Positions 1 to 58,834 of a stretch of DNA of 58,834 nt are shown piece by piece. Source of the stretch: a virus (lineage: Duplodnaviria; Caudoviricetes); the IMG/VR virus record IMGVR_UViG_3300044983_000128, positions 1 to 58,834 of that record. One strand, given 5' to 3'. Each line of letters begins with the position of its first letter. Positions within the stretch are counted from its first letter, which is position 1. The notes under the pieces are model-generated. The model did no database searches. It saw nothing but the letters and a program-made list of their open reading frames with translations, and was not told the origin of the DNA. The translations under genes were made by a program, and so were the position numbers.

Positions 1-127
1 GTGTCGGCGGGCACGGCGACCTATGTACGGACCAACCTACGGCGGAAGAACGACTACGCCTATCGCATAAGGGCGACGAAGAATGGTCTCGTATCGGATT
101 ATTCCAACGTCGTGCTCAGGCCGGCGA
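1..127. repeat. 127-bp exact end overlap with 58708-58834 (circular contig)
   Basis: Bases 1-127 are identical to 58708-58834; the FN3 ORF reads in frame across the junction. Confidence 0.97.
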
Positions 128-134: not shown

Positions 135-419
135 ATGAAAAAGATCATCCCAATCCTGTTGCTGGCGCTCGTCACAGGCGGGTGCGCTCGATTTCACTCA
201 GAGCAAGTCGAGATGGCTCAGGACGGCACCAAGCGCACCACCCACATTTACGTTCTGACCCTCTTTGATGCTCAGAGCAACTTGACCAAGCTGCGGGCCA
301 CCACAACGGACAAATCACAATCGACTTCCTTGGCGGGCTTGAGCGAGAGCGCGTCGAGCACAAATTTTGTGGAGATCTTACGCCTCATTGCTTCCATCGC
401 TGCCGCTACAGCGAAGTAG
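135..419 (+). CDS. Small lipoprotein (possible lysis/spanin-like or envelope protein)
   Basis: MKK + hydrophobic core + VTGGC lipobox-like Cys; last gene of the plus-strand arm, converging on the minus arm. Confidence 0.7.
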   Translation: MKKIIPILLLALVTGGCARFHSEQVEMAQDGTKRTTHIYVLTLFDAQSNLTKLRATTTDKSQSTSLAGLSESASSTNFVEILRLIASIAAATAK

Positions 420-25101: not shown

Positions 25102-25132
25102 CCCCGGAATACCGGGATTGAGAAAGACTTTT

Positions 25133-45752: not shown

Positions 45753-45976
45753 AAATACTCGTCGTCACATACGAACCGTTCCACGACAACAGCTCTGTGG
45801 TCGGAGCCTTCTCATCACTGGATGCGGTCAAAAAGGCGTTCCCCAACCTCCAATTCTCGACTGAGGGTTATTATGTTAGCGGCCCAGTCGTGGCTCAACA
45901 GGTCATACCTAAAGGCTCCGACGAACTTCTGATCGTTACGGAACTGGAACTGGACGGCGAACCTCTTAACCTATGA
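45749..45976 (+). CDS. Hypothetical protein
   Basis: VVGAFSS...ELELD phage motif; coupled. Confidence 0.6.
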   Translation: MKILVVTYEPFHDNSSVVGAFSSLDAVKKAFPNLQFSTEGYYVSGPVVAQQVIPKGSDELLIVTELELDGEPLNL

Positions 45977-46179
45977 ATACCTGCGACACATGCAAACATT
46001 GGGCTGATACTCGGAAAGACGGCACGCCGTATAAGCCGGATGATGTTCAGCGGTTGTGCAACAATCCGAAAATCGACGGAGCAGATTGTTACGCAGAGGA
46101 TGCGCTGAACTCAAATGCGGATTATGATTATGGCCTCACTACCGGCCCGAAGTTCGGCTGCGTTCATCACGCCACATGA
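45973..46179 (+). CDS. Small Cys-rich phage protein
   Basis: TCDTCKHW...TGPKFGCVHH. Confidence 0.7.
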   Translation: MNTCDTCKHWADTRKDGTPYKPDDVQRLCNNPKIDGADCYAEDALNSNADYDYGLTTGPKFGCVHHAT

Positions 46180-46856
46180 GCAAAACGCTGCTGACTATCG
46201 ACACGCACGCCGGCATCCAGGATTTTCTTCCGGCGATGTGGCCGCATTACGAACGGGCTGGCGTGGATATTCTTGGCGTCGAGAGATCCAACAAGCCAAC
46301 ACGCTGGCCGAAGCCGGTTCCGACAATCGCCGTTGGCGAGGATCTTTTCTTGCGTTATTGCCAGCACAAGCATCCGACCCTGTTACCGGAACGGTTCCTG
46401 GATACCATTCAGGCGTTGCTTGAAAATTCACAGTTCTCTGGATATACCGATTTTTGCGTGTCCACATGGAGCGTGTTTTTTCCAAAGCCACTTCCACCAC
46501 CTCCATCAAATCTGGTTCTTCATTTGGCTGGTGGACCGCAATTCAACAGAGGATTTACTGCGCCATATTTATTTCATCATCCGCGTTGGTTTGATAGAGC
46601 TATGGGCGCGACGATCCTTGAAACGGGTCGAAAGCTCATCTCTGAAGGGCGAACCGAGCAGGGGGCTGACGATTATTTTTTTGGACTGATCGTTCATGTG
46701 GCTGAATTGAAATGGCACAATGTTACCACTGTCACGATGAATAGTATGCAAGATCCTGGTCAAATACGCGCTGCCAGAAAAGCAATCTCTGATGGAGCGT
46801 GGTGGGTTGGAAACGTCAAGAATGAGGTTGAACTGGCCAATTTAACTGCCCCGTGA
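46176..46856 (+). CDS. Putative GT-A-like protein (degenerate DxD position)
   Basis: Alpha/beta pattern, HHPRW, DDYFFG, GNVK; context in glycosylation cluster. Confidence 0.45.
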   Translation: MSKTLLTIDTHAGIQDFLPAMWPHYERAGVDILGVERSNKPTRWPKPVPTIAVGEDLFLRYCQHKHPTLLPERFLDTIQALLENSQFSGYTDFCVSTWSVFFPKPLPPPPSNLVLHLAGGPQFNRGFTAPYLFHHPRWFDRAMGATILETGRKLISEGRTEQGADDYFFGLIVHVAELKWHNVTTVTMNSMQDPGQIRAARKAISDGAWWVGNVKNEVELANLTAP

Positions 46857-47410
46857 TTGCGGTCAGTTCCTTCAGGCTATTCGCCGATTCACCCGATATC
46901 GCCCTGAACCAAGCCCGCGCGTTCGCGTCGTGGTTGCCAGTGTTCGACAGTATCTTCTACATGGGCGCAACAGAACGCCGACTGGCTTCGCCAAAGACGG
47001 TATTCATCGCGTCGCCAGATCCGCCTTCGGTTCAATTACTCGTTCAGATGGCCTCAATCCAAGGTTCTCCGGTCTGCATTATCAACGCTGACATCGTGCT
47101 GGCAGCACACGCCCGCGCCGTACTTCACAATGCTATGCGCAGGTTCCAAGTCGCCACATCATTCCGATTGGAGTTCTCGGGCGATATGCGCAAGGCCCGG
47201 CGCGTGGATAACGGTCTGGACTTGTTCATCGCGCACCCGAACGTGTGGCGCAGATGCTGGCCGCTCGTGCCGACCGAGTTCCGCATCGGCCGTCCGGTAT
47301 GGGATTCTTGGCTCAACGCTTGGCTCCGAGACGAATATCGCATGGCCTACACCGACCTCAGTAATCATCGAATCGTGTTTCATCCAAAGCACACACGACC
47401 AGGTTCGTAA
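46853..47410 (+). CDS. Putative glycosyltransferase
   Basis: IINADIVL, GLDLF, IGRPVWDSW, FHPKH motifs. Confidence 0.6.
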   Translation: MIAVSSFRLFADSPDIALNQARAFASWLPVFDSIFYMGATERRLASPKTVFIASPDPPSVQLLVQMASIQGSPVCIINADIVLAAHARAVLHNAMRRFQVATSFRLEFSGDMRKARRVDNGLDLFIAHPNVWRRCWPLVPTEFRIGRPVWDSWLNAWLRDEYRMAYTDLSNHRIVFHPKHTRPGS

Positions 47411-47630: not shown

Positions 47631-48950
47631 ATGGCCTGGAACTGTACCGCATATTTTGATTTCTTGTTCGACCGCACTCCGCATTTCGACGACCGCGTAG
47701 AACGCGACTGGTGGCCCATCGACGATGCATGGGTTGGCCAGATCGAAATGATGAAATGGGAGCCGCGCACCGGCACCGAACACACATGGGACCGCGTGCA
47801 TGTCGGCGCACCGGACCTGACGGGCTGCTGGGAGGAAGTCAGTTTCCAAGACGAGACGTGCGTGGACAACGCGTGTAATCCAGCGAGCAAGACGGTTAGC
47901 TGGGGCAGCACGCGCAAGACCTACACGTATTCCAGGCAGCGCGTGAAGACCATTCCGCTGTGCTTTGATCAGATCAACACACGAGCCAAGGCGAACGAAC
48001 AGGTGAGCAGCATCGTGGACGGGTTGAAGGACATCGTGAAGATGTACAAGAGCGATTTCTTCCGGCGCAACTCGCTGCAAAAGGCGGACTTCATCTACAT
48101 CGCTGGGGATGCGAACGCGAGCGTGCCAATCGTATCGGACACGTTCAACGTGGATTGCACCGAGATTGACTTGGGCAGTGCGGACAATGTGCCGACCTCA
48201 CAACTCACGATTCCGTATCTGCAACGGCAATGGGCACCGCTGCAGTACAACGGTTATTTTCGGAGCAAATTCGTGCCGGCTGGCATGATGAAGCTCATCA
48301 CCGACCCGATTGTGGCGTGGCAACTTGAGCAGGGCAACCCGGCGTTGGTCGAGAAGTACCGCTTCACCGATTTCACCAAGGGCGGCGAGTTGTTCAAGTA
48401 CGGCATGAGCACAGCCGTTGGCAACTTCGGCATCGCTTACGACGCATACCCGATGCGGTTCAATCACATTGGCGGCGGCGTGCTTCGGCGCGTGTTCCCC
48501 TACGTCAACGCGAATGCGACCATTGGCATCAAACGACAATTCGATCAGGCGTATGAAGAAGCCTGCATCCAATATTCACCGATCTGGCATCCGAGCGCCA
48601 TGCAGGCGTTGGTGCCGACTTTGCAGAGCGTGTCGCCGGAAGCGCCGTTCTTCAACCGCGACCTGTTCGGGAAATGGTACTTCCTCGGGGGGAACAGGGA
48701 CAGGACGTTTATTGCCACTGACCCCGCCACCGGTGATTCGTGCACGATTGATAATACCGCAGGGAACCAGGGCTTATGGTGGACCGACATGAACGCCGGC
48801 ATCAAGTTCGTTCGGCCTGAACTGGTCCGCGGCATTCTGCACCTGCGCGAACCGGGCTGCATCGTGAACGATCCTCGTTGCACGCCTTGCCCGACGACCT
48901 ACGCACCGCAAAACTTCGATCAGTTGGTGCCTTGCCAGGAAATCACGTAA
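47631..48950 (+). CDS. Major capsid protein (Cys-rich)
   Basis: 439 aa, downstream of scaffold, long leader and 3' hairpin, ends GILHLR; 12 Cys. Confidence 0.8.
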   Translation: MAWNCTAYFDFLFDRTPHFDDRVERDWWPIDDAWVGQIEMMKWEPRTGTEHTWDRVHVGAPDLTGCWEEVSFQDETCVDNACNPASKTVSWGSTRKTYTYSRQRVKTIPLCFDQINTRAKANEQVSSIVDGLKDIVKMYKSDFFRRNSLQKADFIYIAGDANASVPIVSDTFNVDCTEIDLGSADNVPTSQLTIPYLQRQWAPLQYNGYFRSKFVPAGMMKLITDPIVAWQLEQGNPALVEKYRFTDFTKGGELFKYGMSTAVGNFGIAYDAYPMRFNHIGGGVLRRVFPYVNANATIGIKRQFDQAYEEACIQYSPIWHPSAMQALVPTLQSVSPEAPFFNRDLFGKWYFLGGNRDRTFIATDPATGDSCTIDNTAGNQGLWWTDMNAGIKFVRPELVRGILHLREPGCIVNDPRCTPCPTTYAPQNFDQLVPCQEIT

Positions 48951-48959
48951 TTGGTTTAA

Positions 48960-48987
48960 GGCGCGGGGTTGTGGTCAGCCTCGCGCC
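48960..48987 (+). terminator. Hairpin after the capsid gene
   Basis: GGCGCGGGGTT-gtggtc-AGCCTCGCGCC; weak U-tract. Confidence 0.5.
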
Positions 48988-48998
48988 AACCTAATTTT

Positions 48999-49229
48999 AT
49001 GGCTGATGAAATGATGGATGAAGGCCAAGATTCAATCACGATTCCCCGAAGCGTTTTGGGGGATCGTAAGTGCAAACCTGGAGAGAAACTGACATTCACC
49101 GTGACCGATGTTGACCCGGACACGGGCGACGTAGAGGCCACACTCGGTGGCTACGCTGAAAAGGGCGGCTCGTCGAATGGCGGTAGCACCGACATGAGCG
49201 ACGAGATGGCCAGTTACCCAATGGATTAA
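48999..49229 (+). CDS. Small acidic protein sharing the scaffold C-terminal motif
   Basis: Small beta domain CKPGEKLTFTV; ends DEMASYPMD. Confidence 0.7.
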   Translation: MADEMMDEGQDSITIPRSVLGDRKCKPGEKLTFTVTDVDPDTGDVEATLGGYAEKGGSSNGGSTDMSDEMASYPMD

Positions 49230-49232
49230 CCT

Positions 49233-49604
49233 ATGCCACTTACCTGCACACCTAGCGACATTGCCGAAGCCGCGAAATGTTTCCAAAACCCGTGCATCAA
49301 CGAAAATGATCGTCTCGCCATCGGCGTTTATCTGAAAGCGCAACAGTTGGTGACGGCGGGAGGAACCGATTACACCGACAACTTTGACCTGCTGATGGCC
49401 GATTCTACGGGCTTCACGCTTATCACCATCGGGACATGGACGCTCTCGGCCGAAGAAGTGGCGTTGCTCTTGGACGCGACTACTGGCGCACCGACCACGG
49501 CGGAAGAACTACTCGCGGCGGTGGCGTGCTTGCGCTGCAACTCGCTAAAGGATCTTCGAGCGGCTTTCATGTTCCTCAACTGCGCGATCAACGCGGAGGG
49601 GTAA
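49233..49604 (+). CDS. Cys-repeat virion protein
   Basis: AEAAKCFQNPCI and EELLAAVACLRC units. Confidence 0.7.
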   Translation: MPLTCTPSDIAEAAKCFQNPCINENDRLAIGVYLKAQQLVTAGGTDYTDNFDLLMADSTGFTLITIGTWTLSAEEVALLLDATTGAPTTAEELLAAVACLRCNSLKDLRAAFMFLNCAINAEG

Positions 49605-49610
49605 ACCTGT

Positions 49611-49994
49611 GTGGCCGTCATTGATCCACAAGAAGTAGTTGACGCCGCCCAACCCTGGTGCTGCATCCCCGAGGGCGATCTTTGGTATGCGGTGCTTGGC
49701 GCGTTAATCGTCACTGGAAACGGAGATCCTATGCCTACCGCAAGCGAACTCATGGCACAAATCGCGTGTTTGAAGTGCGGGATTCAACCGGGCGACGTGC
49801 CGTTCTTGATACTGGGCGCGATTGCCAATGGTGGCGGCGGCGGTGGTGGCGGCACGATCCAAGTTTATCAAGGCGCGTTCACCGACCCCAACGGCAATCT
49901 CGTGCCGGATGACCCGACGAAGCCTGCGTTGTACTTCATCACCGGCGGCGGTACACTTTGGCAATGGGACGTGCCCTCGCAGACGTGGGTCTAA
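49611..49994 (+). CDS. Cys-repeat virion protein with poly-Gly linker
   Basis: VDAAQPWCCI, ELMAQIACLKC, G7, DPTKPALY..GTLWQW. Confidence 0.7.
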   Translation: MAVIDPQEVVDAAQPWCCIPEGDLWYAVLGALIVTGNGDPMPTASELMAQIACLKCGIQPGDVPFLILGAIANGGGGGGGGTIQVYQGAFTDPNGNLVPDDPTKPALYFITGGGTLWQWDVPSQTWV

Positions 49995-49998
49995 CCCT

Positions 49999-51564
49999 AT
50001 GCGCAAACTCCTTCTCCTGCTCGCGCTTCTGCCAATGGTGGCGCGGGCGGCGAATCCCGGTTTTCAGGACTTCAACGCGACGCAATTCGCAACAAACGGC
50101 TTCAAGGTGGCGCTGACCAACGGCGTCATCGCGACGAACTTGACGGGTAGAGGCTCGATGACGTTGAACACTTCGCCTGTGCTGACCAACGTGCCCGCTG
50201 GCACCGCGAGCGCGAGTGGCACCGCAGGAAAAGTGCCCGTGTTCAATTCCTCGACGGGCCTTGTGGATTCGGCATTCAGCAGCACCGGGACGAACGGGTC
50301 GTTGTCCGGCGTGTTCTCCGCTAACGGTGGCGCGTTCAGCAACACTCTTACGCTCAGCGGTTCGACAGTGCTCACCAACGTCCCGGCAGGCACCGCGTCG
50401 GCGAGTGGCACGGCAAACACCGTCGCGAAGTTCACGAGCACAACGAACCTCGGCAATGCCAGCTTCACGGACAACGGCACGGCCGTCACGATGACCGAGC
50501 CGCTCCTGTTCAGCGCGGACAACACGCTGGACATCGGGGCGACGAACGCGACGAGGCCGAGGACCGTATGGGCAGGCAATGCGTTCCTTGCGCCGCGCGG
50601 CACAAACTCTGCGCCTGGATTTGCGTTCGCACCGTCAACGAACACCGGGCTTTACTTGGATGGCACTAGCCTCGGGTTCACGACGGCGAATGCTTTCGCC
50701 TACCGCGGTAACGGCAGCACCGAATTTGCACAGTTAAGCTCGTCGGCGTGGCGCTTGCGGAGCGATGCGTTCTTGACGTTTTATTCCAGCACGACGCCGG
50801 TGACGGGCGGCGGCAGCGACGACACCATTATTGGGCGTGAGTCGGCAGCGGTGCTTCAGTTCGGGCAGGACTCAGCAACGCCCATCGTGCAGATGCTCAA
50901 AGGACCGGACGGCAGCGGCACCGACAAGCCGGGCACGAACTTCACGGTCGCACCTGGCCGCGGCACAGGCACAGGCGGCGGCGGCACGTTCTACATAGCC
51001 ACGGCAGGACCGGGTGCAGCGAGCGCCGCAACACAGAATGTGCTCACCAATCGCCTGAGCGTGGACAACCAAGGCAGTGTGGCCATCAGCAACTTCAACG
51101 GCACGGCGACGGCGTTGGTGGGCAGCAGCGCGAGCAATACGCTATCCACGGTAACGCTGGGTAGTGGTCTTACGCTATCGGCAGGCACCTTGACATCAGC
51201 TGGGGATTCCAGCGGGACCAACATCGTTACGCTCGCGCAGACTGGTACGAATGTTACGGCGATGGATTTTTCCCTCGTGCAAAATGGAGGGTTGTTCAAG
51301 CTCAGCTTGACGAATAACGCCTTCATTCCGACGCCATCGAATGTGGGCACCACCACGTTTAAGCATTGCTGGCTGGCGGTGCAGCAGCCATCGACCGGGA
51401 CATGCTTTGTGACTTGGACCAATGCCTCATTTGGAGCACCAGAAGGACAATCACTCATAAACGACACCAACAATGGGTCCGTCGTTTATTATGAGATGGT
51501 GACTGATCCATTTACAAACATGGTGCAGGTCTGGATGAGCACCCGAATGAAGTTGATGCCGTGA
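49999..51564 (+). CDS. Tail-fibre-like protein with Sec signal peptide
   Basis: MRKLLLLLALLPMVARA-A; fibre motifs DNTLDIGA..TRPR and GTNSAPGFAF...NTGLY; 16-aa internal duplication. Confidence 0.75.
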   Translation: MRKLLLLLALLPMVARAANPGFQDFNATQFATNGFKVALTNGVIATNLTGRGSMTLNTSPVLTNVPAGTASASGTAGKVPVFNSSTGLVDSAFSSTGTNGSLSGVFSANGGAFSNTLTLSGSTVLTNVPAGTASASGTANTVAKFTSTTNLGNASFTDNGTAVTMTEPLLFSADNTLDIGATNATRPRTVWAGNAFLAPRGTNSAPGFAFAPSTNTGLYLDGTSLGFTTANAFAYRGNGSTEFAQLSSSAWRLRSDAFLTFYSSTTPVTGGGSDDTIIGRESAAVLQFGQDSATPIVQMLKGPDGSGTDKPGTNFTVAPGRGTGTGGGGTFYIATAGPGAASAATQNVLTNRLSVDNQGSVAISNFNGTATALVGSSASNTLSTVTLGSGLTLSAGTLTSAGDSSGTNIVTLAQTGTNVTAMDFSLVQNGGLFKLSLTNNAFIPTPSNVGTTTFKHCWLAVQQPSTGTCFVTWTNASFGAPEGQSLINDTNNGSVVYYEMVTDPFTNMVQVWMSTRMKLMP

Positions 51565-52424
51565 GAAACTTGTTGGCGATTATTTTACTATTCATTTGCC
51601 TTCCGGTTCGTGCGGCTTTTATAAACAGTTGCTCGGATTGGGAGGCAATACGCTGGCAAACCAGGATTGCGACCAACGGCGGCACTATCAGCGGCTCATC
51701 TTACATCGTTGGAACAAGGTTTCTTCAGTATTCTAAAGTGTGGGGCATTCGTCAGTACCTTGGGCGCGTCGGACTCTACATCGGCACCGGGACGAACGCG
51801 ATGCTGTGCCCGATCATCGTGGATTGGTTCACCACGACAGTCGCACCGGACCAGTTAATCTCGTTCGTGAGCACCGACTACAGCGAGGCGACCGGGCTGA
51901 CCGGCAACACCACTACCAAATCGCTGGCGATAAACTCGCTGACGCCGGGATTCAGCATGCCGGGACAGACCAGCATCACCAACCTGCACCTCGCCGTGTA
52001 TAACCGGACGGCATCGTCGCAATCCGGCTACTGCATCGGCGTGGCCTATACGGTTGGCCCAACCATCGTGGGGCTGCCCATCTCGTACGCGAACGTGACG
52101 TATCTGGAGATTGGCACGGTGGCGAATCAGGTGTCAGTTGCGGACACGACTGGGACGGGGTTTTATGTGGCGACGCGGCGCTCAGACAGCCGTGCGATTT
52201 ACAAGAACGGATCTTCGATTCTTACCAGTTCGGCGGCGGCTGCTGGCACGCTCAGTGGCGGGCAGCCATTCGTTCACGCGGAAGGGGCAGCAAGCGGAAG
52301 CCCTTCGCTGTGGACCGACCGCGCTTTATCGTATTACTGCTACGGCTTCGGAGTGCCTGATGAGAGGGAATCGGCTTATTATGTATTAGTGCTGAATGTT
52401 CAGAAGGCTTACAACCGCCAGTGA
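51561..52424 (+). CDS. Secreted beta-sandwich (ConA/LamG-like) protein
   Basis: MRNLLAIILLFICLPVRA-A signal; GFYVATR...IYKNG pattern. Confidence 0.65.
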   Translation: MRNLLAIILLFICLPVRAAFINSCSDWEAIRWQTRIATNGGTISGSSYIVGTRFLQYSKVWGIRQYLGRVGLYIGTGTNAMLCPIIVDWFTTTVAPDQLISFVSTDYSEATGLTGNTTTKSLAINSLTPGFSMPGQTSITNLHLAVYNRTASSQSGYCIGVAYTVGPTIVGLPISYANVTYLEIGTVANQVSVADTTGTGFYVATRRSDSRAIYKNGSSILTSSAAAAGTLSGGQPFVHAEGAASGSPSLWTDRALSYYCYGFGVPDERESAYYVLVLNVQKAYNRQ

Positions 52425-52609
52425 GCGAGTTTAAGGAATTGCGCGACGCCCTGTCGGAATGCAATGTGGGCGATGCGGTGCTCGAATCGGTCTATGAACG
52501 CGAGTTGCTGGAGCGGCGCAAGGTGGCGCTGATGAGCTTCGAGCGAGTGCCACTCAGAGGCGATGACCCGACGTGGCGCTCTGGTTGGATATGGCGGCGA
52601 TGTAAATGA
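52421..52609 (+). CDS. Hypothetical protein
   Basis: 62 aa, overlap-coupled at both ends. Confidence 0.45.
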   Translation: MSEFKELRDALSECNVGDAVLESVYERELLERRKVALMSFERVPLRGDDPTWRSGWIWRRCK

Positions 52610-54282
52610 AAACATTCCTTGTGATGCTGGTGATGCTGGCCTGTTGGACGGTGCAGGCGGCGAATCCCGCATTCACCGATTTCAACACAAACGAGTTCCT
52701 GACGACCGGCAACAGGGTGTTCTTCAAGCGCATGACCAACAACGCGGGCGTGATGTCGATTGCCTTCGACGCAGCGAACATCCCTAACACCAGCGGCATC
52801 ACCAACAGCACGGATGTGATAGGCATCGGCGACATGACGCTGGATTCAAGCTCCATCGTTGGCAGTGCGAGCCTCTTTGCCGTGGGCATCTCTACAATGG
52901 CGGGGTCTTCCATCACGAACGGCAACAGGTTGTATGCGTTCGGCGATTCTTCTTTGGGCGCTGGCGCAGTCGTGAATGACGCTACCTTCATGTTCGCTAT
53001 GGGCAACAGTGCGTTGAACGGCGTAAACAGCGGCAGCGACTCAGACATCTATGCTTTTGGCACATCTGTGTTTGCCGCGGCGGGCATGACTGGCAACACG
53101 GGACTCTATGGCTTTGGCAATCTCATTGGCCTTAGTGCTTTGCTGACGAACAACACCGACATCTACGGCATCGGCGAGAGCGTCCTAAACGCGGCCACCC
53201 TCGTAAACAATCAGAAAGTCGTCGGCATTGGTTCGCAAGTGCTGGACACCGCCGATGTGCGAAGCAGTGACAATATGTTCGGCTACGGCTCCCGTCCGTT
53301 TGCTTCAAGCACACTGACGAACGTTTCGCAAATCTACGGCTATGGCGAGAACGTCGGCTCATCGGCCTTTATGCGAAATTCATCGGACGTATTCGGCTAC
53401 GGCGTCGGTGCTCTCGACAGCGCGACGATTACGAACTTCAGTCAGTACATATTTGCGTACGGCAGTTCGTCGATGCTCGGCTTCAAATCAGATGGCGCGA
53501 CTGATGTTTACGGCTTCGGCGGTAGCACGCTGGCAACGGCCACACTGGCCCCGTTCAGCGGGCAGATTTACGCCTACGGCGAGAGCGCGTTGAGCGGCGC
53601 AACACTCACGAACGCAGTGCAACTTTATGCCTACGGCGAGTCGGCGGGAGCAAGCATGATCGGCGGCGGTCTCAACGCCGTTTACACATTCGGCAAGCAG
53701 GGATTAGGCGGCGCTTCGATAAACGGCAGCGGCACCATCTATGCGATTGGAGAGTTGGCTATGGACTCGGCTAGCCTCGATAATGCCGTGGGTGTCTATG
53801 CTTTCGGCACAAGTGCGCTGAGAAGCACGACGCTGACGAACATTTCGGACATCTATGCCATTGGCGACAACGCAGGCATCAGCATGTCCGGCATTAACAA
53901 GAGCCACATATTCATCTTGGGCAGCGGCGGGCTGGCGACGAACAGCAACGACTACGTGTTCGGCGACACGGCTTACAATTACTACTTCCCTGGTGCGAGC
54001 TCGACGTTCGCATCCAAGGTGACGGCGAGCAGCGGCGTGTCTAGCACAGCGTCGGATGCCGCTGTGTCCATCGCCGCGACGGGCTGGACGAACACATTCT
54101 CGAAGAACGCCGTCGTTTACTTCTCGGGCACGGCGGTCACGGCGACGGTGTTCAACGATGCGGGCACCAGCGTCTTCACCAACGCCGTCGCGCAGACTGG
54201 CATGGGCACGGTTATCTTGCAGCCGTCGGGCAAGGTGATACTCTCGGGCACTGGCGTAACCGGACAAGCGACGCCGTTCTAA
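52606..54282 (+). CDS. Secreted beta-solenoid fibre/adhesin-like protein
   Basis: MKTFLVMLVMLACWTVQA-A signal; many ~19-aa IY[AG]xGxxxLxxAxLTN repeats. Confidence 0.75.
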   Translation: MKTFLVMLVMLACWTVQAANPAFTDFNTNEFLTTGNRVFFKRMTNNAGVMSIAFDAANIPNTSGITNSTDVIGIGDMTLDSSSIVGSASLFAVGISTMAGSSITNGNRLYAFGDSSLGAGAVVNDATFMFAMGNSALNGVNSGSDSDIYAFGTSVFAAAGMTGNTGLYGFGNLIGLSALLTNNTDIYGIGESVLNAATLVNNQKVVGIGSQVLDTADVRSSDNMFGYGSRPFASSTLTNVSQIYGYGENVGSSAFMRNSSDVFGYGVGALDSATITNFSQYIFAYGSSSMLGFKSDGATDVYGFGGSTLATATLAPFSGQIYAYGESALSGATLTNAVQLYAYGESAGASMIGGGLNAVYTFGKQGLGGASINGSGTIYAIGELAMDSASLDNAVGVYAFGTSALRSTTLTNISDIYAIGDNAGISMSGINKSHIFILGSGGLATNSNDYVFGDTAYNYYFPGASSTFASKVTASSGVSSTASDAAVSIAATGWTNTFSKNAVVYFSGTAVTATVFNDAGTSVFTNAVAQTGMGTVILQPSGKVILSGTGVTGQATPF

Positions 54283-54283
54283 T

Positions 54284-54523
54284 ATGAAAACGAAACTATT
54301 AGCGTTATTGGCGCTGTGCAGCATGTGCTTCGCGGCGGACCCACCAAAGCAGGATGCGGCGGCGGTCGCGAAGGAGCGCCATGACCGTTCGCAGTTGGCC
54401 GGTGAATTTCGGCGCAAGGTTGAAGTGCTCACGGCGGAAGAAATCGCGACGGTCAAGGCGATACTCGCCAAGCACCCGGACAAAATCGCGCCGGTACCAG
54501 CGAAGCCCGCGCCGAAACCGTAA
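54284..54523 (+). CDS. Small secreted protein
   Basis: MKTKLLALLALCSMCFA-A signal. Confidence 0.65.
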   Translation: MKTKLLALLALCSMCFAADPPKQDAAAVAKERHDRSQLAGEFRRKVEVLTAEEIATVKAILAKHPDKIAPVPAKPAPKP

Positions 54524-54524
54524 C

Positions 54525-54553
54525 TTGCCCATCCCGCGCGGCACGCCTACGCT
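54525..54553 (+). promoter_or_regulatory. Leaderless sigma70-type promoter
   Basis: TTGCCC-17-TACGCT-6-ATG. Confidence 0.55.
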
Positions 54554-54559
54554 TCGCGG

Positions 54560-56197
54560 ATGAAACGATTCTTCGCCCTGCTTCTGGCGGCACTTCCCGC
54601 CTTCGGCCAGAGTAATTTACCTTCCAGCGTTTACGACGATTGGGCTGGTACAAATTCGGTCATCACCATGCCTCAGGGCACGTACACGCTGCCAGGCACC
54701 GCACCGCTGTGGCTGCATCGGTCGGGCGTCACGATAGAGTTCGCCGGATGTACGCTGCTGGTCAACCCCGCCGACAAGGCGAACGACGGCTTCTATCCCA
54801 TCCAAGTCGCGAGCTTGCCCGGCACGAACGCCTGGGTCACAGGCGGCAACACGCGGCACATCTCGCATCTCTCTGGAAGTATCTCGGAATGCACGACGCA
54901 GCTCACGATGGACCCCGCCGAGGTGATGCCGCTGACGGCCGGTGAGCGCGTGCTGATATGGGCGGGCGCAACGCCGAGCGACCCGGTTGAGCCAGCGGCG
55001 TTCATCCCGGCAACGGTGGCCGGCGTGACCAACGGCGTCGTGACGTTCGCGGCACCCCTGGGCAAGCTCATCCCGAACTACGGCTCGCTGGCGGGCATGA
55101 GCAACGTCACCGAGGCGGGCCTGCAATGGAAGATTGGCGCATGGGGGACGTGGCCGTCCGGTGCGAACTTCAGCAAGGGCTACGGCGTTGACCACGGCCT
55201 CGAGCGATTCGTCGGCGGCATGGTGCATGATATCACGCTGAACGACGTGACGCTCCAGAACGCCCTCGTGGACGCCGCGCACAGCCCGAATGCGATGTGG
55301 GACATCTCGGCGGTGGCGGTGCAGGGCTTCACGCTGCGGAACGCGAGAATCACCAATCCGCACGGCAACACCATCCATCTATGGCGCAGCTTCGACACGC
55401 TCGTGGACGGGGCGCACTTCTGCGGCGCAGGTCGGTCGAAGATAAACAACTCGCTCGTGAGCGAGGCGTTCGCGCTCACGGCTTGGGGCGGGGACCGGCT
55501 GACCTACACGAACATCAATATCGGCGGCACTGACACGACGGCGTTCAACACCGAGGTCGGCAGCGACAACATAGCGGTCAACGGCCTGACCGTGGACGTG
55601 GAGTTCACGAGCGCGAGGAACTATCCAAGCTCGCCGACCCTCTTGAACTTCCATGCGACGCATTGGCCGCGGGTGACGGACACAAGCCTGCGGGCGGTGA
55701 CGACGGGTGGCTCGGCGCACAGCTATTACAGCTACGACCCCGTCGCGTTCTACGGTGGGCTGACGTTCCCCGGCACGAGCCTCACGTCATGGTTCGACTT
55801 CGGCTATCAGAAGTTCCCGACGTTGAACGGCACGGTGACGCTGGGCGGCGTGACGTACGGGCCTGCGGTGGCGCTCAGCACCAACGTGACGCTGCTGCAT
55901 GGCGCGGGCTTCCGCGACTTGACACCGCCCGAAGGCGTCTATCCAGCAGGCAGGTTCCGGCTCACGACGGTCGGCTCGCTGCGCTCGGCTACCGATTCGC
56001 AGGGTGGCACGTACAACTGGGCGGCATTGACCAACGGCCAGTGGGTCGTGGTGCTGCCCAACGTGTGGCACTCCATCGCGCCGGGCGACACCGCGCTGGC
56101 CAGCTACATGAGCAAGTACATCCGGTTCTGGTTCAACTCGCCGAGCGTAAACGATGCTGTCGTGGAGTTCGAGGCGACGGTGCTGCCGCGGCAATAA
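54560..56197 (+). CDS. Secreted pectin-lyase-like beta-helix (tailspike-like) protein
   Basis: MKRFFALLLAALPAFG-Q signal; ITMPQGTY..L.RSGVTIE and DITLNDVTL rungs. Confidence 0.65.
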   Translation: MKRFFALLLAALPAFGQSNLPSSVYDDWAGTNSVITMPQGTYTLPGTAPLWLHRSGVTIEFAGCTLLVNPADKANDGFYPIQVASLPGTNAWVTGGNTRHISHLSGSISECTTQLTMDPAEVMPLTAGERVLIWAGATPSDPVEPAAFIPATVAGVTNGVVTFAAPLGKLIPNYGSLAGMSNVTEAGLQWKIGAWGTWPSGANFSKGYGVDHGLERFVGGMVHDITLNDVTLQNALVDAAHSPNAMWDISAVAVQGFTLRNARITNPHGNTIHLWRSFDTLVDGAHFCGAGRSKINNSLVSEAFALTAWGGDRLTYTNINIGGTDTTAFNTEVGSDNIAVNGLTVDVEFTSARNYPSSPTLLNFHATHWPRVTDTSLRAVTTGGSAHSYYSYDPVAFYGGLTFPGTSLTSWFDFGYQKFPTLNGTVTLGGVTYGPAVALSTNVTLLHGAGFRDLTPPEGVYPAGRFRLTTVGSLRSATDSQGGTYNWAALTNGQWVVVLPNVWHSIAPGDTALASYMSKYIRFWFNSPSVNDAVVEFEATVLPRQ

Positions 56198-56235: not shown

Positions 56236-56586
56236 ATGGAAAATAGGGAAATTGCAGGCTGGTCGGTTGACAAGCTCCACGAGCATATCCGCACCCTTAT
56301 CGACGAGCGCGACAAACGGTATGAACAGGGTGCGAAAGCGCAAAAGGAAGCGGTGGAAACCGCCTTGGCATCAGCGGAGCGCGCAGTCGAGAAGGCGGAA
56401 GCCATCAACACCGCATGGCGCATTAACGCAAACGAGTGGCGCGCCGCAATGAGCGACAAGGACAAGTTGTATCTGACCAAAGCCGAGGCCAGGAGCGACT
56501 TCCGCACGATGCTGGCACTCACCGGGCTCATGGTGACGATCATGTCGGTGGTCGTTGGAATCGTCATACAGCTGTTTAAGCATTGA
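56236..56586 (+). CDS. Coiled-coil protein with C-terminal TM (lysis-region)
   Basis: ERDKRYEQ...ALASAERAVEKAE..NEWR; promoter TTGGCA-18-TAAATT-5-ATG. Confidence 0.65.
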   Translation: MENREIAGWSVDKLHEHIRTLIDERDKRYEQGAKAQKEAVETALASAERAVEKAEAINTAWRINANEWRAAMSDKDKLYLTKAEARSDFRTMLALTGLMVTIMSVVVGIVIQLFKH

Positions 56587-56611
56587 CGCTGCAAGCGGGG
56601 TGAATCCCCCA

Positions 56612-56640
56612 TTGCCTCAGCGCACCGCGACTGGTATGTT
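56612..56640 (+). promoter_or_regulatory. Leaderless sigma70-type promoter
   Basis: TTGCCT-17-TATGTT-5-ATG. Confidence 0.6.
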
Positions 56641-56645
56641 GTGCT

Positions 56646-56876
56646 ATGGCTAAGGATCACGACCACGGACAAGATGATGGAATCGCAAGATTGCTCGTCG
56701 AAATCCGCAATGTGTTAAGCGACACTGAGCGCCGGAACAACGAACGGCACCACGAGTTGCTTGTAGCACTTGCGGGCCGCATCTCGGAGGCGGACCAGCG
56801 GTTGCTCACTGGGCTGCTGAAGCGGTCAGAGATGATCGCGAAGAAGCTCGAAGCTCTGGACGCCAAGACACCATAA
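56646..56876 (+). CDS. Small helical protein
   Basis: C-terminal DQRLL...KLEALDAKTP matches the next gene. Confidence 0.65.
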   Translation: MAKDHDHGQDDGIARLLVEIRNVLSDTERRNNERHHELLVALAGRISEADQRLLTGLLKRSEMIAKKLEALDAKTP

Positions 56877-56911
56877 ACCGCCCGAGTGGGCACAACGAAA
56901 GAGAAATACAA

Positions 56912-57157
56912 ATGTCAGCTATCTCTGACTACGCAGCGAAAGCAAACGCATTTAACGACCGCATTGACAGCGCTGTAACCGGCCTGCAAGGCGACGTTCA
57001 GGCGTTAAACGACCTAATCGTCAAATTGCAAGGGACGCAGGGCCAAGTGACGCCGGAAGACCAAGCGCTCCTGGACCAGTTGCAGGCCCGTGCGGAAACC
57101 ATCGCCACCAAGGTTGAGGCACTCGATGCCCTGACCCCGCCGACACCTCCGGTCTAA
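56912..57157 (+). CDS. Small coiled-coil protein
   Basis: DQALL...KVEALDALTP; followed by terminator. Confidence 0.75.
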   Translation: MSAISDYAAKANAFNDRIDSAVTGLQGDVQALNDLIVKLQGTQGQVTPEDQALLDQLQARAETIATKVEALDALTPPTPPV

Positions 57158-57178
57158 CTAACCTCAGTACCAAACATG

Positions 57179-57207
57179 CCCGTCACAGTGTCCCTGTGGC
57201 GGGTTTT
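57179..57207 (+). terminator. Intrinsic terminator
   Basis: CCCGTCACAG-tgtcc-CTGTGGCGGG-TTTT. Confidence 0.7.
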
Positions 57208-57254
57208 GGGGATTGAGCGTTGACGGCACCCGAAGCGGAGCACACCATGCCAGC

Positions 57255-57611
57255 ATGAACATTATTATCGCAGCCATCCTTGCTCAAACCAACATCCCGC
57301 CAGTTGTGCCCGACCCGCTGCACACCAGCCAAACCGAGCTTTGGAAGTATGCCATTGCTGTCGTCACACCATTGGCAATTTCCCTCGTAAAATGGGGCGT
57401 ACCGAAAGTGCCGAAATTGCTGCTCCCATCGCTGGCACCATTCGTCGGCATCGCCTTGGGGTTCGCTTTGAACGCGGTCGGCATGGCGCATGTGACGTGG
57501 GTTGACGGCGCTTTGCTAGGCGGCTTCGGCGTGGCGATTCGCGAGGTGCTGGATCAGGCGGTCAAACTTCAGCAAAGCCAAGGCTCGAAGGCGGGCATCT
57601 CAGGAGACTGA
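57255..57611 (+). CDS. Holin-like membrane protein
   Basis: Three hydrophobic segments, LPSLAPFVGIALG, charged tail; promoter TTGACG(57220)-17-CACCAT-6-ATG. Confidence 0.6.
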   Translation: MNIIIAAILAQTNIPPVVPDPLHTSQTELWKYAIAVVTPLAISLVKWGVPKVPKLLLPSLAPFVGIALGFALNAVGMAHVTWVDGALLGGFGVAIREVLDQAVKLQQSQGSKAGISGD

Positions 57612-57768: not shown

Positions 57769-58834
57769 ATGAAGACACACTCTACATTGCCGTGGTCGGT
57801 CGCAGGCTCACGCGCTTCTTCACGATGGACGGCGGTGAAGCGGGCACTTGGGCCATCAACACGACGTTCGCTATGCGTCACGGCTTTTTTATGCGCCTGC
57901 ATGTGGCTCCCCGGAAACTGCGTAGCCGACATCGTGACGTTAACATTGGCATGGGACCCCTCGCAGGTAACGGCCAACAACCCAGCGGCGGTGAGTTATC
58001 GCCTGTACATGGCGATAGGCTCAGGCTCTTTCAACCTTACTACGACTGTTCAAGCGACCCCAACGCCGACGGTACAGGTCGCTGGTGTGGACACGAGCGT
58101 CCAAACAAGGTTCTTCGTGACGGGCGTGGGGGCCAACGGCAACGAGAGCGGCCAGAGCAACACGCTGACGAACGCACCAACGGTAGTGCCACCGCCAACG
58201 GGAGTCATCGGCATATCGACGCCAATCCTGACGGCGACCAACCTCGTGCGGGGTGCAACAATAACGGGCACGGCGCGCTTCACCAACGGCACAACGGCGA
58301 CGGTGCAGGTCAACCAAGGCTGGCTGACGGCGCGGCAACCGGGCGCGTCAAACCAAAGCGGGCCGTTCGACGATTGGAGTCCGGGCATACCGTCGCAGGC
58401 CGTGAATCCAGGCCAAATCGTGACGCTGACAGCATCGTGGGTCGTGCGGGCCGACGCGCCGTTCGGGACGTGGCAGGTGCACTTAGCCGTGCAGGTCGGC
58501 GGCGTCTATAACGACGGGCCAACAACGCCGTTCAACGTGGTGACGAACGTGCCGCCACCGACACAGCCTCCGTTGCCTCCAAGCAACTTGAGAATTGTTC
58601 CAGTGACGAGCACGCGCGTGGACTTGTTCTGGACCAACGGCGACTCGCAGGCGAGGACCGAGGTTGAGGAACGCAAGGAGCAGGACGCCTTCAAGCGCAT
58701 TGTCACGGTGTCGGCGGGCACGGCGACCTATGTACGGACCAACCTACGGCGGAAGAACGACTACGCCTATCGCATAAGGGCGACGAAGAATGGTCTCGTA
58801 TCGGATTATTCCAACGTCGTGCTCAGGCCGGCGA
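57769..58834 (+). CDS. Secreted FN3-domain protein (~356 aa, continues to position 132; absent from ORF track)
   Basis: Signal-like RRSLCVTAFLCACMWLPGNCVA; LTLAWDPS..SYRLY..NESGQSN and PPSNL..VDLFWTN FN3 motifs; open across the circular junction. Confidence 0.85.
   Translation, partial: MKTHSTLPWSVAGSRASSRWTAVKRALGPSTRRSLCVTAFLCACMWLPGNCVADIVTLTLAWDPSQVTANNPAAVSYRLYMAIGSGSFNLTTTVQATPTPTVQVAGVDTSVQTRFFVTGVGANGNESGQSNTLTNAPTVVPPPTGVIGISTPILTATNLVRGATITGTARFTNGTTATVQVNQGWLTARQPGASNQSGPFDDWSPGIPSQAVNPGQIVTLTASWVVRADAPFGTWQVHLAVQVGGVYNDGPTTPFNVVTNVPPPTQPPLPPSNLRIVPVTSTRVDLFWTNGDSQARTEVEERKEQDAFKRIVTVSAGTATYVRTNLRRKNDYAYRIRATKNGLVSDYSNVVLRPA
58708..58834. repeat. 127-bp copy of bases 1-127
   Basis: Exact match to the window start. 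Confidence 0.97.

What the first reader, a model, noticed from the sequence alone, without database searches (positions are those of the whole stretch)
49999..56197. Tail-fibre/tailspike-like proteins with Sec signal peptides and Thr-Asn enrichment: candidate exported virion-appendage system
Seen: five genes directly after the capsid/decoration genes (49999, 51561, 52606, 54284, 54560), plus the FN3 gene (57769) and lipoprotein (135), begin with signal peptides. Yet 49999 carries phage tail-fibre motifs (DNTLDIGA..TRPR; GTNSAPGFAF...NTGLY), 52606 is a beta-solenoid and 54560 looks like a tailspike beta-helix. By manual count about 18 of ~41 Asn in 49999 follow Thr, with about 12 TN in 52606, 7 in 54560 and 6 in the FN3 protein, against none in the 439-aa capsid protein. 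Established: tailed-phage fibres normally fold and attach in the cytoplasm and lack signal peptides. Inference: these appendages are exported to the periplasm, possibly modified at T-N sites by host machinery (I recall a TN bias in extracytoplasmic proteins of some Verrucomicrobia), and dock on virions at lysis. Alternatively they remodel the infected cell surface.
Basis: partly seen in the sequence, partly recalled or inferred. Interest (0 to 1): 0.85.

Follow-up and report, generated by a model that had tools for sequence, protein, structure and literature searches.

The report
Signal-peptide-bearing phage fibre and spike proteins
An uncultured soil phage carries a fast-evolving block of tail-fibre-like and tailspike-like genes that all begin with secretion signals, so these parts appear to be exported out of the cytoplasm where virions are built, which is unusual for tailed phages.

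Summary
The window is a complete circular phage genome of about 58.7 kb. Genes at 49999, 51561, 52606, 54284 and 54560 all start with textbook Sec-type signal peptides, as do the FN3 gene and a lipoprotein-like gene.

The signals are kept in every related phage contig that reaches this position (10 of 10 loci). The mature proteins there are only 27-48% identical or replaced, although the capsid is 85-89% identical.

- **49999:** a mosaic fibre with a swappable C-terminal knob. The knob model resembles phage spike and fibre domains, with middling scores.
- **52606:** 18 tandem repeats of 19-20 residues.
- **54560:** its Atlas model resembles pectate-lyase-like right-handed beta-helices.

In two of the families the signal is optional, because distant relatives lack it. 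In some relatives of 49999 the signal sits directly in front of a T4 gp9-like baseplate-attachment N-terminus.

The Thr-Asn excess is real. It is 46 observed against 18.3 expected (z 7.1), is directional, and recurs in six related records. Non-exported proteins and canonical fibres do not show it. It remains unexplained.

Export is well supported. Docking on virions and modification at Thr-Asn sites are untested. Best guess (0.4): receptor-binding appendages that mature in the periplasm. Main rival (0.3): exported proteins that act on the envelope and never join the virion.

The parts
47631..48950 (+). Putative major capsid protein (439 aa). It is context and the anchor used to find relatives.
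   Evidence: 13 IMG/VR loci are 85-89% identical. There are no Pfam or PHROG hits. Atlas neighbours are viral clusters, and in one of them 13% of members carry PF13252 Phage_capsid_3. TN count is 0.
48969..49994 (+). Three small conserved genes without signal peptides (86, 123 and 127 aa) between the capsid gene and the cassette.
   Evidence: They are 47-79% identical in G001-G004. 49233 and 49611 are weak paralogues, and 49233 resembles the C-terminus of the collagen-like 25118. 49611 has a conserved N-terminal 70 residues and a variable C-terminus.
49999..51564 (+). P0001, a 521-aa exported mosaic fibre. Signal peptide is residues 1-17, followed by an extended shaft and a C-terminal beta-sandwich knob at about residues 405-515.
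   Evidence: signal peptide; 32 homologues, of which 29 have signal-like N-termini. AF2 is confident only in the knob. The knob scores Z 7.4 to the phage Pa223 capsid spike and 6.2-6.8 to tailspike parts. BFVD gives tail-fibre hits. TN is 18 against 6.2.
51561..52424 (+). P0002, a 287-aa exported protein of unknown fold that always follows the fibre gene.
   Evidence: GTG start overlapping the stop of P0001. Matches phrog_17104, unknown function, E 3e-6. Homologues with signal peptides are present in G001-G004 and L014. The family has 27 hits; closer ones carry Sec signals, two look Tat-like and six have none.
52421..52609 (+). 62-aa ORF without a signal peptide, overlapping both neighbours by 4 bases. 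Its status as a gene is uncertain.
   Evidence: GC3 is 0.70. No homologue in G001-G004. No Pfam hit.
52606..54282 (+). P0003, a 558-aa exported repeat protein and probable beta-solenoid. Signal peptide is residues 1-18. It has 18 tandem repeats of 19-20 residues (residues 109-454) and a C-terminal domain of about 100 aa.
   Evidence: repeat spacings are 19 or 20 throughout. It shares the signal peptide and the ANPxFxDFN N-terminus with P0001. 14 homologues; 9 of the 10 new ids have signal-like N-termini. TN is 12 against 4.0. No structure was predicted.
54284..54523 (+). P0004, a 79-aa exported protein with a Pro/Lys-rich tail.
   Evidence: No family hit. No homologue in G001-G004. It contains no Asn.
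54560..56197 (+). P0005, a 545-aa exported right-handed parallel beta-helix, pectate-lyase-like or tailspike-like.
   Evidence: Signal peptide MKRFFALLLAALPAFG|Q. The Atlas's own model (pTM 0.74) aligns at TM 0.62 over 407 residues to a cluster carrying Beta_helix and Gp49_Pectate_lyase_like. 64 homologues. Of 41 with N-terminal coverage, 12 have signal- or TM-like N-termini, 24 have none and 5 have other extensions. No Pfam hit at E<=0.1. My own AF2 job failed.
56236..57611 (+). Possible lysis region: a 116-aa protein with a C-terminal membrane helix (56236-56586), two small paralogues (56646, 56912) and a weakly holin-like membrane protein (57255-57611).
   Evidence: phrog_1129 holin at E 0.009 only; paralogy. 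No endolysin was recognised in the proteins scanned.
57769..58834 (+). P0006, an FN3-domain protein with a signal-like segment. It runs over the circle's junction and stops at base 129. The start is 57769 (ATG) or 57835 (GTG).
   Evidence: fn3 at E 6e-5; phrog_4971 'major tail protein' at E 8e-6, covering the FN3 part only. Relatives have clear signal peptides.
135..419 (+). 94-aa lipoprotein-like protein (MKKIIPILLLALVTGGC...), the last gene of the + strand late block.
   Evidence: Homologues in G002 and G004 are 60-69% identical. phrog_8801, unknown function, at E 0.0013.

Best explanation
The block 49999-56197, together with the FN3 gene, is the hypervariable host-interaction cassette of a new lineage of tailed soil phages. 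Its products are assembled from tail-fibre, tailspike and Ig-like modules: a mosaic fibre with an exchangeable knob, a 19-residue-repeat solenoid, a pectate-lyase-like beta-helix, and a conserved 287-aa companion protein. Each one carries a cleavable Sec signal peptide.

**Shown:** the signals exist, are clustered, and are kept across relatives while the mature parts are swapped. The modules are shared with ordinary, signal-less phage fibres and spikes.

**Inferred:**
- The genes are transcribed late with the capsid gene. They are tightly packed or overlapping, and no promoter or terminator signal rises above shuffled sequence.
- The proteins are exported through Sec and cleaved by signal peptidase I.
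- They fold, and possibly become modified, in the periplasm.
- They meet the finished, fibre-less virions only when holin lesions merge cytoplasm and periplasm, and dock then through short mature N-terminal motifs.

The Thr-Asn excess marks this exported set but has no established meaning.
For: - **Signals:** 6 of 76 ORFs are signal-like, five of them consecutive.
- **Conservation:** the first large gene after the conserved capsid block has a signal peptide in 10 of 10 related loci that reach it. So do the P0002-like and FN3-like genes.
- **Homologues:** 29 of 32 P0001 homologues and 9 of 10 further P0003 homologues have signal-like N-termini.
- **Divergence pattern typical of receptor-binding proteins:** capsid 87-89% and other core genes 50-82% identical, against 27-48% or absent for the cassette in four near-complete relatives. 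Modules recombine: P0016 joins a P0003-type solenoid to a P0001-type knob at 69% identity, and P0008-P0010 keep the P0001 shaft but end in another C-terminal domain.
- **Fold:** the P0001 knob gives Z 7.4 (rmsd 2.8, 95 aligned) to the Pa223 capsid spike and Z 6.2-6.8 to two tailspike entries. There are 189 BFVD hits at E<=1e-3, and the named ones are mostly tail fibres. The P0005 Atlas model aligns at TM 0.62 to Beta_helix/Gp49-like clusters.
- **Virion-type N-terminus behind a signal:** in homologue P0013 the residues right after the signal peptide match the N-terminus of T4-like gp9, the baseplate wedge tail fibre connector. Identity is 48-52% over about 64 residues, E down to 2e-8, across 1634 records. 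In S-SSM5 the match starts at gp9 residue 2.
- **Signal-less relatives in structural settings:** a signal-less P0005 relative with an N-terminal extension lies about 4.3 kb upstream of the terminase small subunit gene and 5.2 kb upstream of the large one. Signal-less fibre-like and P0002-like genes follow the coat gene in cyanophage KBS-S-2A.
Against: - No tool here shows that the proteins are exported, cleaved or present in virions.
- I know of no tailed phage whose fibres are added after export, and three literature searches found none.
- The mature N-termini of fibres from closely related phages differ (ANPGFQDFN, IFNNTFTTQ, NFDNAFTTN, NFPDTSTDQ), and so do their C-termini. A common docking domain is therefore not evident.
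- The genome has signal-less candidates with the classical pattern of conserved N-terminus and variable C-terminus: 28730 with Ig-like He_PIG domains, and 32648.
- The cassette also holds small exported proteins with no fibre features (P0004; 134-141-aa proteins in relatives).
- One signal-bearing P0005 relative sits beside a serine recombinase or invertase with no fibre-like ORF among the + strand ORFs read; the other strand was not read.
- The AF2 model of P0001 is poor overall (mean pLDDT 56.6, pTM 0.28). All structural Z-scores are in the range the tool calls middling.
Confidence: 0.4

Rival explanations
1. The proteins are exported but never become part of the virion. They act on the envelope of the infected cell. 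The beta-helix enzyme would cut nascent or outgoing surface polysaccharide in the periplasm, and the fibre-like and FN3 proteins would bind glycans. This would strip or mask receptors, giving superinfection exclusion and sparing progeny from being lost on debris, or it would ease release.
For: - Export signals only make sense for a job outside the cytoplasm.
- WceF of Pantoea is a Tat-exported, trimeric, tailspike-like beta-helix that trims exopolysaccharide. That paper also cites a periplasmic capsule depolymerase (PMC7949094, passages read).
- Porphyromonas phages encode signal-bearing proteins of unknown function, read there as envelope modifiers (PMC10367356, passages read).
- No conserved virion anchor is seen among relatives.
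- Other signal-less receptor-binding candidates exist.
- Small non-fibre exported proteins share the cassette.
- A sugar-modification module lies just upstream.
- P0005-type genes occur alone beside a recombinase.
Against: - In a diderm host a Sec signal alone ends in the periplasm, where surface receptors cannot be masked. No outer-membrane translocation signal was found (no Pfam or NCBIfam hit).
- Long modular fibres with exchangeable knobs, and gp9-like attachment N-termini in homologues, are hard to explain for a non-virion role.
- About 10% of the genome is a heavy investment for an accessory function.
Confidence: 0.3
2. The N-terminal hydrophobic segments are uncleaved signal anchors. 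The proteins stay tethered to the inner membrane, facing the periplasm, as a membrane-bound assembly platform or lysis-linked complex.
For: Some homologues have longer hydrophobic stretches that look more like membrane anchors (P0024, P0056). The cassette abuts membrane proteins of a putative lysis region.
Against: Nearly every N-terminus ends in a small-x-small motif 15-25 residues in (ARA|A, VRA|A, VQA|A, CFA|A, AFG|Q, and the same in relatives). An anchor has no reason to conserve this.
Confidence: 0.1
3. The genes are lysogenic-conversion 'morons'. They would be adhesin-like surface proteins expressed from a prophage for the benefit of the host, not late virion or lysis functions.
For: The gene content is variable. 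Signal-bearing proteins are typical of morons. One relative lies next to an integrase- or invertase-like gene.
Against: - The genes are packed without gaps behind the capsid gene on the same strand, with overlapping start and stop codons.
- The promoter and terminator scan is not above shuffled sequence.
- No integrase was seen in the window proteins that were scanned.
- The capsid and P0005 found no relative in 185,579 species genomes.
Confidence: 0.1
4. The apparent signal peptides, the TN excess or both are chance or gene-calling artefacts.
For: Only a home-made signal-peptide rule was used. A looser version gives many false hits in short ORFs.
Against: - Five consecutive long genes with GC3 of 0.69-0.85 are involved.
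- The signals are conserved in six distinct fibre types and in dozens of database homologues.
- TN has z 7.1 and the excess recurs in six other records.
Confidence: 0.03

Closest known systems
Phage tail fibres and baseplate connectors (T4 gp9, gp34-37; cyanophage fibres)
   Same: Extended, low-complexity shafts, mosaic module exchange and a small C-terminal beta-sandwich knob. Homologue P0013 carries a gp9-like N-terminus.
   Different: All known examples are made and assembled in the cytoplasm without signal peptides. T4 gp34-37 and two other canonical fibres show no TN excess. The window's own mature N-terminus and its central domain find nothing in 50,697 phage records.
Tailspike depolymerases with a right-handed parallel beta-helix (Pfam Beta_helix, Gp49_Pectate_lyase_like)
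   Same: The Atlas model of P0005 aligns to such clusters at TM 0.62 over 407 residues. Its family includes members with N-terminal adaptor-like extensions near terminase genes.
   Different: P0005 has a Sec signal where a particle-binding domain would normally be. No Pfam model matches at E<=0.1. Catalytic residues were not examined.
WceF of Pantoea stewartii, a Tat-exported tailspike-like exopolysaccharide hydrolase (PMC7949094)
   Same: A tailspike fold behind an export signal, with activity in or beyond the periplasm (passages read).
   Different: WceF is a chromosomal gene in an exopolysaccharide cluster and uses Tat. The genes here are phage late genes with Sec-type signals. No sequence similarity was tested.
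Signal-bearing proteins of Porphyromonas gingivalis phages that obey the Bacteroidetes Q-rule (PMC10367356; PMC5837995)
   Same: Phage-encoded proteins predicted to use the host Sec pathway (passages read; abstract seen). Many homologues here also expose Gln after the predicted cleavage site.
   Different: Those are a few genes of unknown function and are not fibre-like. In this window only 1 of 5 predicted cleavage sites exposes Gln.
Exported phage lysis and exclusion proteins: Sec- or SAR-type endolysins, spanins, T5 Llp (recalled, from no call)
   Same: These are precedents that phages route some late proteins through Sec.
   Different: They are small lysis or exclusion factors, not 500-900-aa modular fibres and spikes.

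Membership tests
Sec/signal peptidase I signal peptide | Positively charged n-region, uncharged hydrophobic h-region of about 7-15 residues, and a c-region with small residues at -3 and -1 | tested here: met
   My own heuristic rule, not SignalP. All five genes pass. So do 29 of 32 P0001 homologues and 9 of 10 further P0003 homologues.
Sec/signal peptidase I signal peptide | Actual export and cleavage | not testable with these tools
   Needs reporter fusions or N-terminal proteomics.
Phage tail fibre / receptor-binding protein | Mosaic evolution with exchangeable distal domain; the most variable gene among close relatives | tested here: met
Phage tail fibre / receptor-binding protein | Conserved virion-attachment domain among phages with conserved tails | tested here: inconclusive
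   No conserved terminus among the fibres of the window and G001-G004. There are only short shared motifs, and a gp9-like N-terminus in more distant homologues.
Phage tail fibre / receptor-binding protein | Homotrimeric fibrous structure | not tested
   The complex prediction queue was full at all eight tries. The monomer model is mostly low-confidence coil.
Phage tail fibre / receptor-binding protein | Presence in the virion | not testable with these tools
   No cultured relative: no match in 50,697 phage records for the capsid, P0001, P0002 or P0005.
Right-handed parallel beta-helix (pectate-lyase-like tailspike) | Beta-helix fold | tested here: met
   Atlas model of P0005 with pTM 0.74 and mean pLDDT 0.66. 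It aligns at TM 0.62 over 407 residues to a cluster where 100% carry Beta_helix and 99% carry Gp49_Pectate_lyase_like. My own AF2 job failed.
Right-handed parallel beta-helix (pectate-lyase-like tailspike) | Match to the Pfam sequence models | tested here: not met
   0 Pfam families at E<=0.1 and 0 NCBIfam families.
Outer-membrane or surface sorting signals (T9SS C-terminal domain, autotransporter, PEP-CTERM) | Recognisable C-terminal sorting domain | tested here: not met
   No Pfam hit for P0001-P0006 and no NCBIfam hit for P0001 or P0005. The C-termini read ...RMKLMP...GQATPF and ...VLPRQ.
Bacteroidetes Q-rule substrates | Gln at +1 of the cleavage site in most signal peptidase I substrates | tested here: not met
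   By my reading of the cleavage sites, 1 of 5 in the window (P0005). Gln at +1 is common in several homologues.
N-glycosylation sequon carriers | Enrichment of N-x-S/T | tested here: not met
   Not enriched in 4 of 5 proteins; P0001 has 15 against 10.0, p=0.045.
Bacterial lipoprotein (gene at 135) | Lipobox [LVI][ASTVI][GAS]C | tested here: inconclusive
   The sequence is LALVTGGC. The Cys is in a plausible place but the -3 residue is Thr.

The most novel reading that the evidence does not exclude
This phage lineage uses a two-compartment assembly route. Heads and tails are built in the cytoplasm. The receptor-binding fibres, the spike and their companion proteins are exported by Sec. They mature in the periplasm, possibly with a host-dependent modification aimed at [L/G]-Thr-Asn sites. 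They are fitted to the virion only after holin lesions join the two compartments. The Thr-Asn excess would then be the footprint of that extracytoplasmic maturation.
Probability: 0.25. Interest if true: 0.9.

Novelty: new variant of a known kind. Interest (0 to 1): 0.7.

Why it matters
Tail fibres and tailspikes are the textbook case of cytoplasmic virion assembly. A whole lineage, with scattered members of two further families, has placed Sec, Tat-like or lipoprotein-type signals in front of these modules.

One reading is an unknown assembly route, in which the periplasm serves as a maturation compartment for host-range determinants. The other is that phages routinely redeploy fibre and spike modules as exported effectors that act on the envelope of the infected cell.

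Either reading bears on how receptor-binding proteins are predicted from metagenomes, because signal-bearing hits are usually discarded as non-structural. It also bears on engineering phage host range. The export-specific Thr-Asn bias is a concrete, testable lead to a modification or folding rule in an uncultured host group.

Tried and rejected
- **Family scans.** Pfam, PHROGs and NCBIfam scans of the cassette proteins gave nothing beyond fn3 and two PHROGs. Ten other large proteins gave no PHROG hit and only He_PIG in Pfam.
- **Solved structures.** Profile searches against Protein Data Bank sequences with A1 and A2 gave only chance-level hits.
- **Cultured relatives.** The phage collection has no match to the capsid, P0001, P0002, P0005, P0027, the mature N-terminus of P0001 or its central domain.
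- **Host.** The capsid and P0005 found nothing in the species genomes. There are no tRNA genes. Relatives cannot be drawn for a virus record. The Atlas's 'Verrucomicrobiota/Planctomycetota' labels on P0005 neighbours are only a lead.
- **TN as a DNA motif: rejected.** The hexamers are spread over ACGAAC 19, ACCAAC 17 and four others.
- **TN as a general fibre property: rejected.** Controls are T4 gp34-37, MW202545 and KBS-S-2A.
- **TN as a property of every signal-bearing protein: rejected.** P0004 has no Asn. In the P0005 family, signal-bearing members have 29 against 33.8 expected.
- **TN bias in print.** One search found nothing relevant.
- **Printed precedent for exported fibres.** Searches found none. 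One search gave WceF.
- **Structure prediction.** The P0001 trimer test was never accepted because the queue was full (eight tries). P0003 and P0002 were not folded.
- **Other.** Scans for signal-less P0005 relatives with P0063 and P0050 found nothing, and alignment A2 was too diverse to scan with.

Full report
**What the window is.** The window is the whole record held for this genome, a single contig of 58,834 bases. Its first and last 127 bases are identical. It is therefore a circularly closed phage genome of about 58,707 bp. The FN3 gene that runs off the 3' end stops at base 129, just before the lipoprotein-like gene at 135.

Genes lie on the minus strand up to about 25 kb and on the plus strand from 25,118 round to 419. 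The lineage is far from anything described:
- Ten large proteins have no PHROG hit, and only one Pfam domain (He_PIG) was found.
Its Atlas neighbours are viral clusters, and in one of them 13% of members carry Phage_capsid_3.
- It has no relative in 50,697 GenBank phage records or in 185,579 species genomes.
- It has 13 loci at 85-89% identity in IMG/VR.

**The signal peptides.** No signal-peptide predictor was available, so I wrote a rule: charged n-region, uncharged hydrophobic window, and small residues at -3 and -1.
- The strict form, applied to 76 greedy-called ORFs with GC3 of at least 0.6, picks six. These are the five genes and the lipoprotein-like gene at 135.
- A looser form also picks short or wrong-frame ORFs, so the rule alone is weak evidence. 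Conservation is the strong evidence.
- The genes are packed. The P0002 start overlaps the P0001 stop, two further 4-base overlaps follow, and then gaps of 1 and 36 bases.
- The promoter and terminator scan is not above shuffled sequence. I infer that they are co-transcribed with the capsid gene.

**Conservation in relatives.** In each of the 10 related loci that extend past the three small conserved genes, the next gene is a large protein of 356-995 aa with a signal peptide. Nine were flagged automatically and L010 by reading.
- These loci hold six distinct fibre types.
- The P0002-like and FN3-like genes also carry signals.
- A further contig, L014, has the same order, all with signals: solenoid fibre, P0002-like, P0005-like at 72% identity, FN3.

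Identity to four near-complete relatives, G001-G004:

| Gene | Identity |
|---|---|
| capsid | 87-89% |
| 664-aa protein | 72-75% |
| 587-aa P-loop protein | 76-80% |
| 763-aa protein | 63-82% |
| P0001 | 37-48%, over 31-95% of its length |
| P0002 | 27-45% |
| P0003 | found in one of four |
| P0004, P0005 | found in none |
| FN3 protein | 29-37% |

The signals are kept while the mature parts are replaced.

**What the proteins are.**

*P0001.* It has 32 database homologues. They are mosaics: shared blocks appear in different orders and with different ends.
- P0016 joins a P0003-type solenoid to a P0001-type C-terminal domain at 69% identity.
- P0008-P0010 keep the P0001 shaft but end in another domain.
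- AF2 with 23 sequences gave a poor model (mean pLDDT 56.6, pTM 0.28). Only residues about 405-515 form a confident beta-sandwich, and the rest is mostly coil.
- That domain's best matches among 48,161 representative chains are the Pa223 capsid spike (Z 7.4, rmsd 2.8, 95 aligned), a tailspike depolymerase of phage Solidus (Z 6.8), a chaperone-substrate complex (Z 6.8), a Klebsiella phage baseplate chain (Z 6.4) and CBA120 TSP4 (Z 6.2).
- Seven chains reach Z 5 and none reaches Z 8, which the tool itself rates as middling.
- Foldseek against viral models gave 189 hits at E<=1e-3. The named ones are mostly tail fibres, collagen-repeat or YadA-domain phage proteins, but TM-scores are only 0.12-0.21 by query.

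*P0003.* It has 18 tandem repeats of 19 or 20 residues between residues 109 and 454. I infer a beta-solenoid. It was not modelled.

*P0005.* The Atlas holds a model (pTM 0.74). It aligns at TM 0.62 over 407 residues to a cluster carrying Beta_helix and Gp49_Pectate_lyase_like. The feature search gives Beta_helix/NosD clusters at 0.91. My own AF2 job failed.

*P0002.* It matches only phrog_17104, of unknown function.

**The signal is optional in two families.**

For P0005, 64 homologues were found in 1.84 billion representatives. I examined the 41 whose alignment reaches the N-terminus. The other 23 are fragments or partial matches and were left out.
- 12 have signal- or membrane-like N-termini.
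- 24 start directly at the mature motif LPQSVYDD.
- 5 have other N-terminal extensions.

One signal-less relative with a 50-residue extension ends about 4.3 kb upstream of the terminase small subunit gene and 5.2 kb upstream of the large subunit gene. One signal-bearing relative lies beside a serine recombinase or invertase.

In the P0002 family, the 17 closer full-length members (30-99% identical) have Sec signals, two look twin-arginine (Tat-like) and six have none. The signal-less ones reach cyanophage proteins. In cultured cyanophage KBS-S-2A, a signal-less fibre-like gene and two P0002-like genes follow the coat gene.

Homologue P0013, and by eye P0027 and P0041, has a stretch directly behind its signal peptide that matches the very N-terminus of T4-like gp9, the baseplate wedge tail fibre connector. 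Identity is 48-52% over about 64 residues, E down to 2e-8, across 1634 records. In S-SSM5 the match starts at gp9 residue 2. Export signals have thus been placed in front of modules that elsewhere attach to virions. The window's own mature N-terminus finds nothing.

**Thr-Asn.**
- It is directional, since NT is not enriched.
- It is spread over several codon pairs.
- TN is most often preceded by Leu or Gly.
- It is family-wide: 494 against 185.0 expected in 29 signal-bearing P0001 homologues, and 156 against 49.1 in nine P0003 homologues.
- In an automated split of ORFs of at least 100 aa with GC3 of at least 0.62, across the window and six related records, the signal class has 195 against 74.9 (per record 1.84-3.06 fold). 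The rest has 159 against 133.5, or 1.04-1.46 fold. Some FN3 genes are misfiled in the second class.
- Small non-fibre exported proteins share the excess, for example 5 against 1.0 and 5 against 0.9.
- Sec-bearing P0002 relatives have 53 against 29.8. Tat-like and signal-less relatives have 2 against 4.8 and 8 against 12.8. These sequences are related, so the p-values overstate the case.
- Canonical fibres show nothing: T4 gp34 8 against 10.2, gp37 8 against 6.8, MW202545 fibre 14 against 10.5.
- The P0005 family shows none, even in its signal-bearing members (29 against 33.8).

The bias belongs to the exported proteins of this phage lineage. It does not belong to fibres or signal peptides in general. 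Its cause is open.

**Mechanism.** Export is the well-supported step. What happens afterwards is inference.

I rank first (0.4) the reading that these are the phage's exchangeable receptor-binding appendages, matured in the periplasm and joined to particles once holin lesions merge the compartments. The reasons are their fibre and spike architecture, their knob swapping, their place at the end of the structural block before a weakly holin-like gene, and the gp9-like N-termini in homologues.

The main rival (0.3) is that they never join the virion and instead act on the infected cell's envelope glycans. This is supported by WceF, by the missing common anchor, and by signal-less proteins with the classical conserved-N, variable-C pattern (28730).

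Uncleaved anchors, morons and artefact rank lower.

**Comparison and novelty.** The modules are those of known fibres and tailspikes. The consistent Sec signals, their conservation across a lineage and the export-linked TN bias are not described in the papers my four searches returned. I rate this a new variant of a known kind. It would be categorically new only if post-export docking were shown. No supplementary files were consulted.

**Limits.** No SignalP, no trimer model, no own model of P0005, P0003 or P0002, no host, and no expression or proteomic data.

Noticed in passing
window 1-127 and 58708-58834: The two ends are identical over 127 bases, so the contig is a closed circle of about 58,707 bp. 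The FN3 gene spans the junction.
   Followed up: yes
window 43051-47410: A sugar- or methyl-modification module lies just upstream of the capsid gene. It holds Methyltransf_24 (E 4e-16), an FkbM methyltransferase (E 6e-14) and weak DUF6492/Stealth hits. Most of it is present in only one of four relatives (G001). 43051 is a paralogue of minus-strand gene 21660 (26% identity, E 4e-21).
   Followed up: partly
window 33759-40511: A 2250-aa protein carries an LPD38 'large polyvalent protein' domain (E 2e-28) and matches phrog_9854. It is almost entirely unconserved in relatives whose neighbouring genes are 60-75% identical.
   Followed up: partly
window 28730-30064: A 444-aa protein without a signal peptide has He_PIG Ig-like domains. 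Its N-terminal 200 residues or so are 47-53% conserved and its C-terminal half is variable. This is the classical receptor-binding-protein pattern and makes it an alternative host-range candidate.
   Followed up: partly
window 28179-28733: An HNH endonuclease (HNH_3, E 4e-9) is inserted among the structural genes. HNH-like ORFs sit at other places, after the capsid gene, in some relatives.
   Followed up: no
window, upstream of late-gene starts (e.g. 47631, 49233, 49999, 54284): No Shine-Dalgarno-like AGGAG is visible before most late genes. Many starts follow the previous stop by a few bases. This may say something about the host's translation initiation.
   Followed up: no
window 25118-25954, 49233-49604, 49611-49994: The collagen-like 278-aa protein shares a Cys-containing segment with the small protein at 49233, which is itself a weak paralogue of 49611. 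49611 has a poly-Gly linker and a variable C-terminus.
   Followed up: no
window 56236-57611: No endolysin was recognised among the proteins scanned. The only lysis-like signal is a weak holin PHROG at E 0.009 for 57255-57611. 56646 and 56912 are paralogues (55% over 33 residues).
   Followed up: partly
proteins P0134, P0138 (P0002 family) and P0052 (P0005 family): Some relatives carry other export signals. P0134 and P0138 have a twin-arginine-like KRRAFLTTLALAAGAKA. P0052 has a lipoprotein-like ...VVAAC. This suggests repeated, independent recruitment of export signals to these families.
   Followed up: no
L033 9140-9961 (next to a signal-bearing P0005 relative): A serine recombinase or DNA invertase (phrog_95 integrase at E 2e-28, phrog_125 DNA invertase at E 7e-23) lies directly downstream of the beta-helix gene. 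This recalls the invertible fibre cassettes of other phages (recalled, not tested).
   Followed up: no
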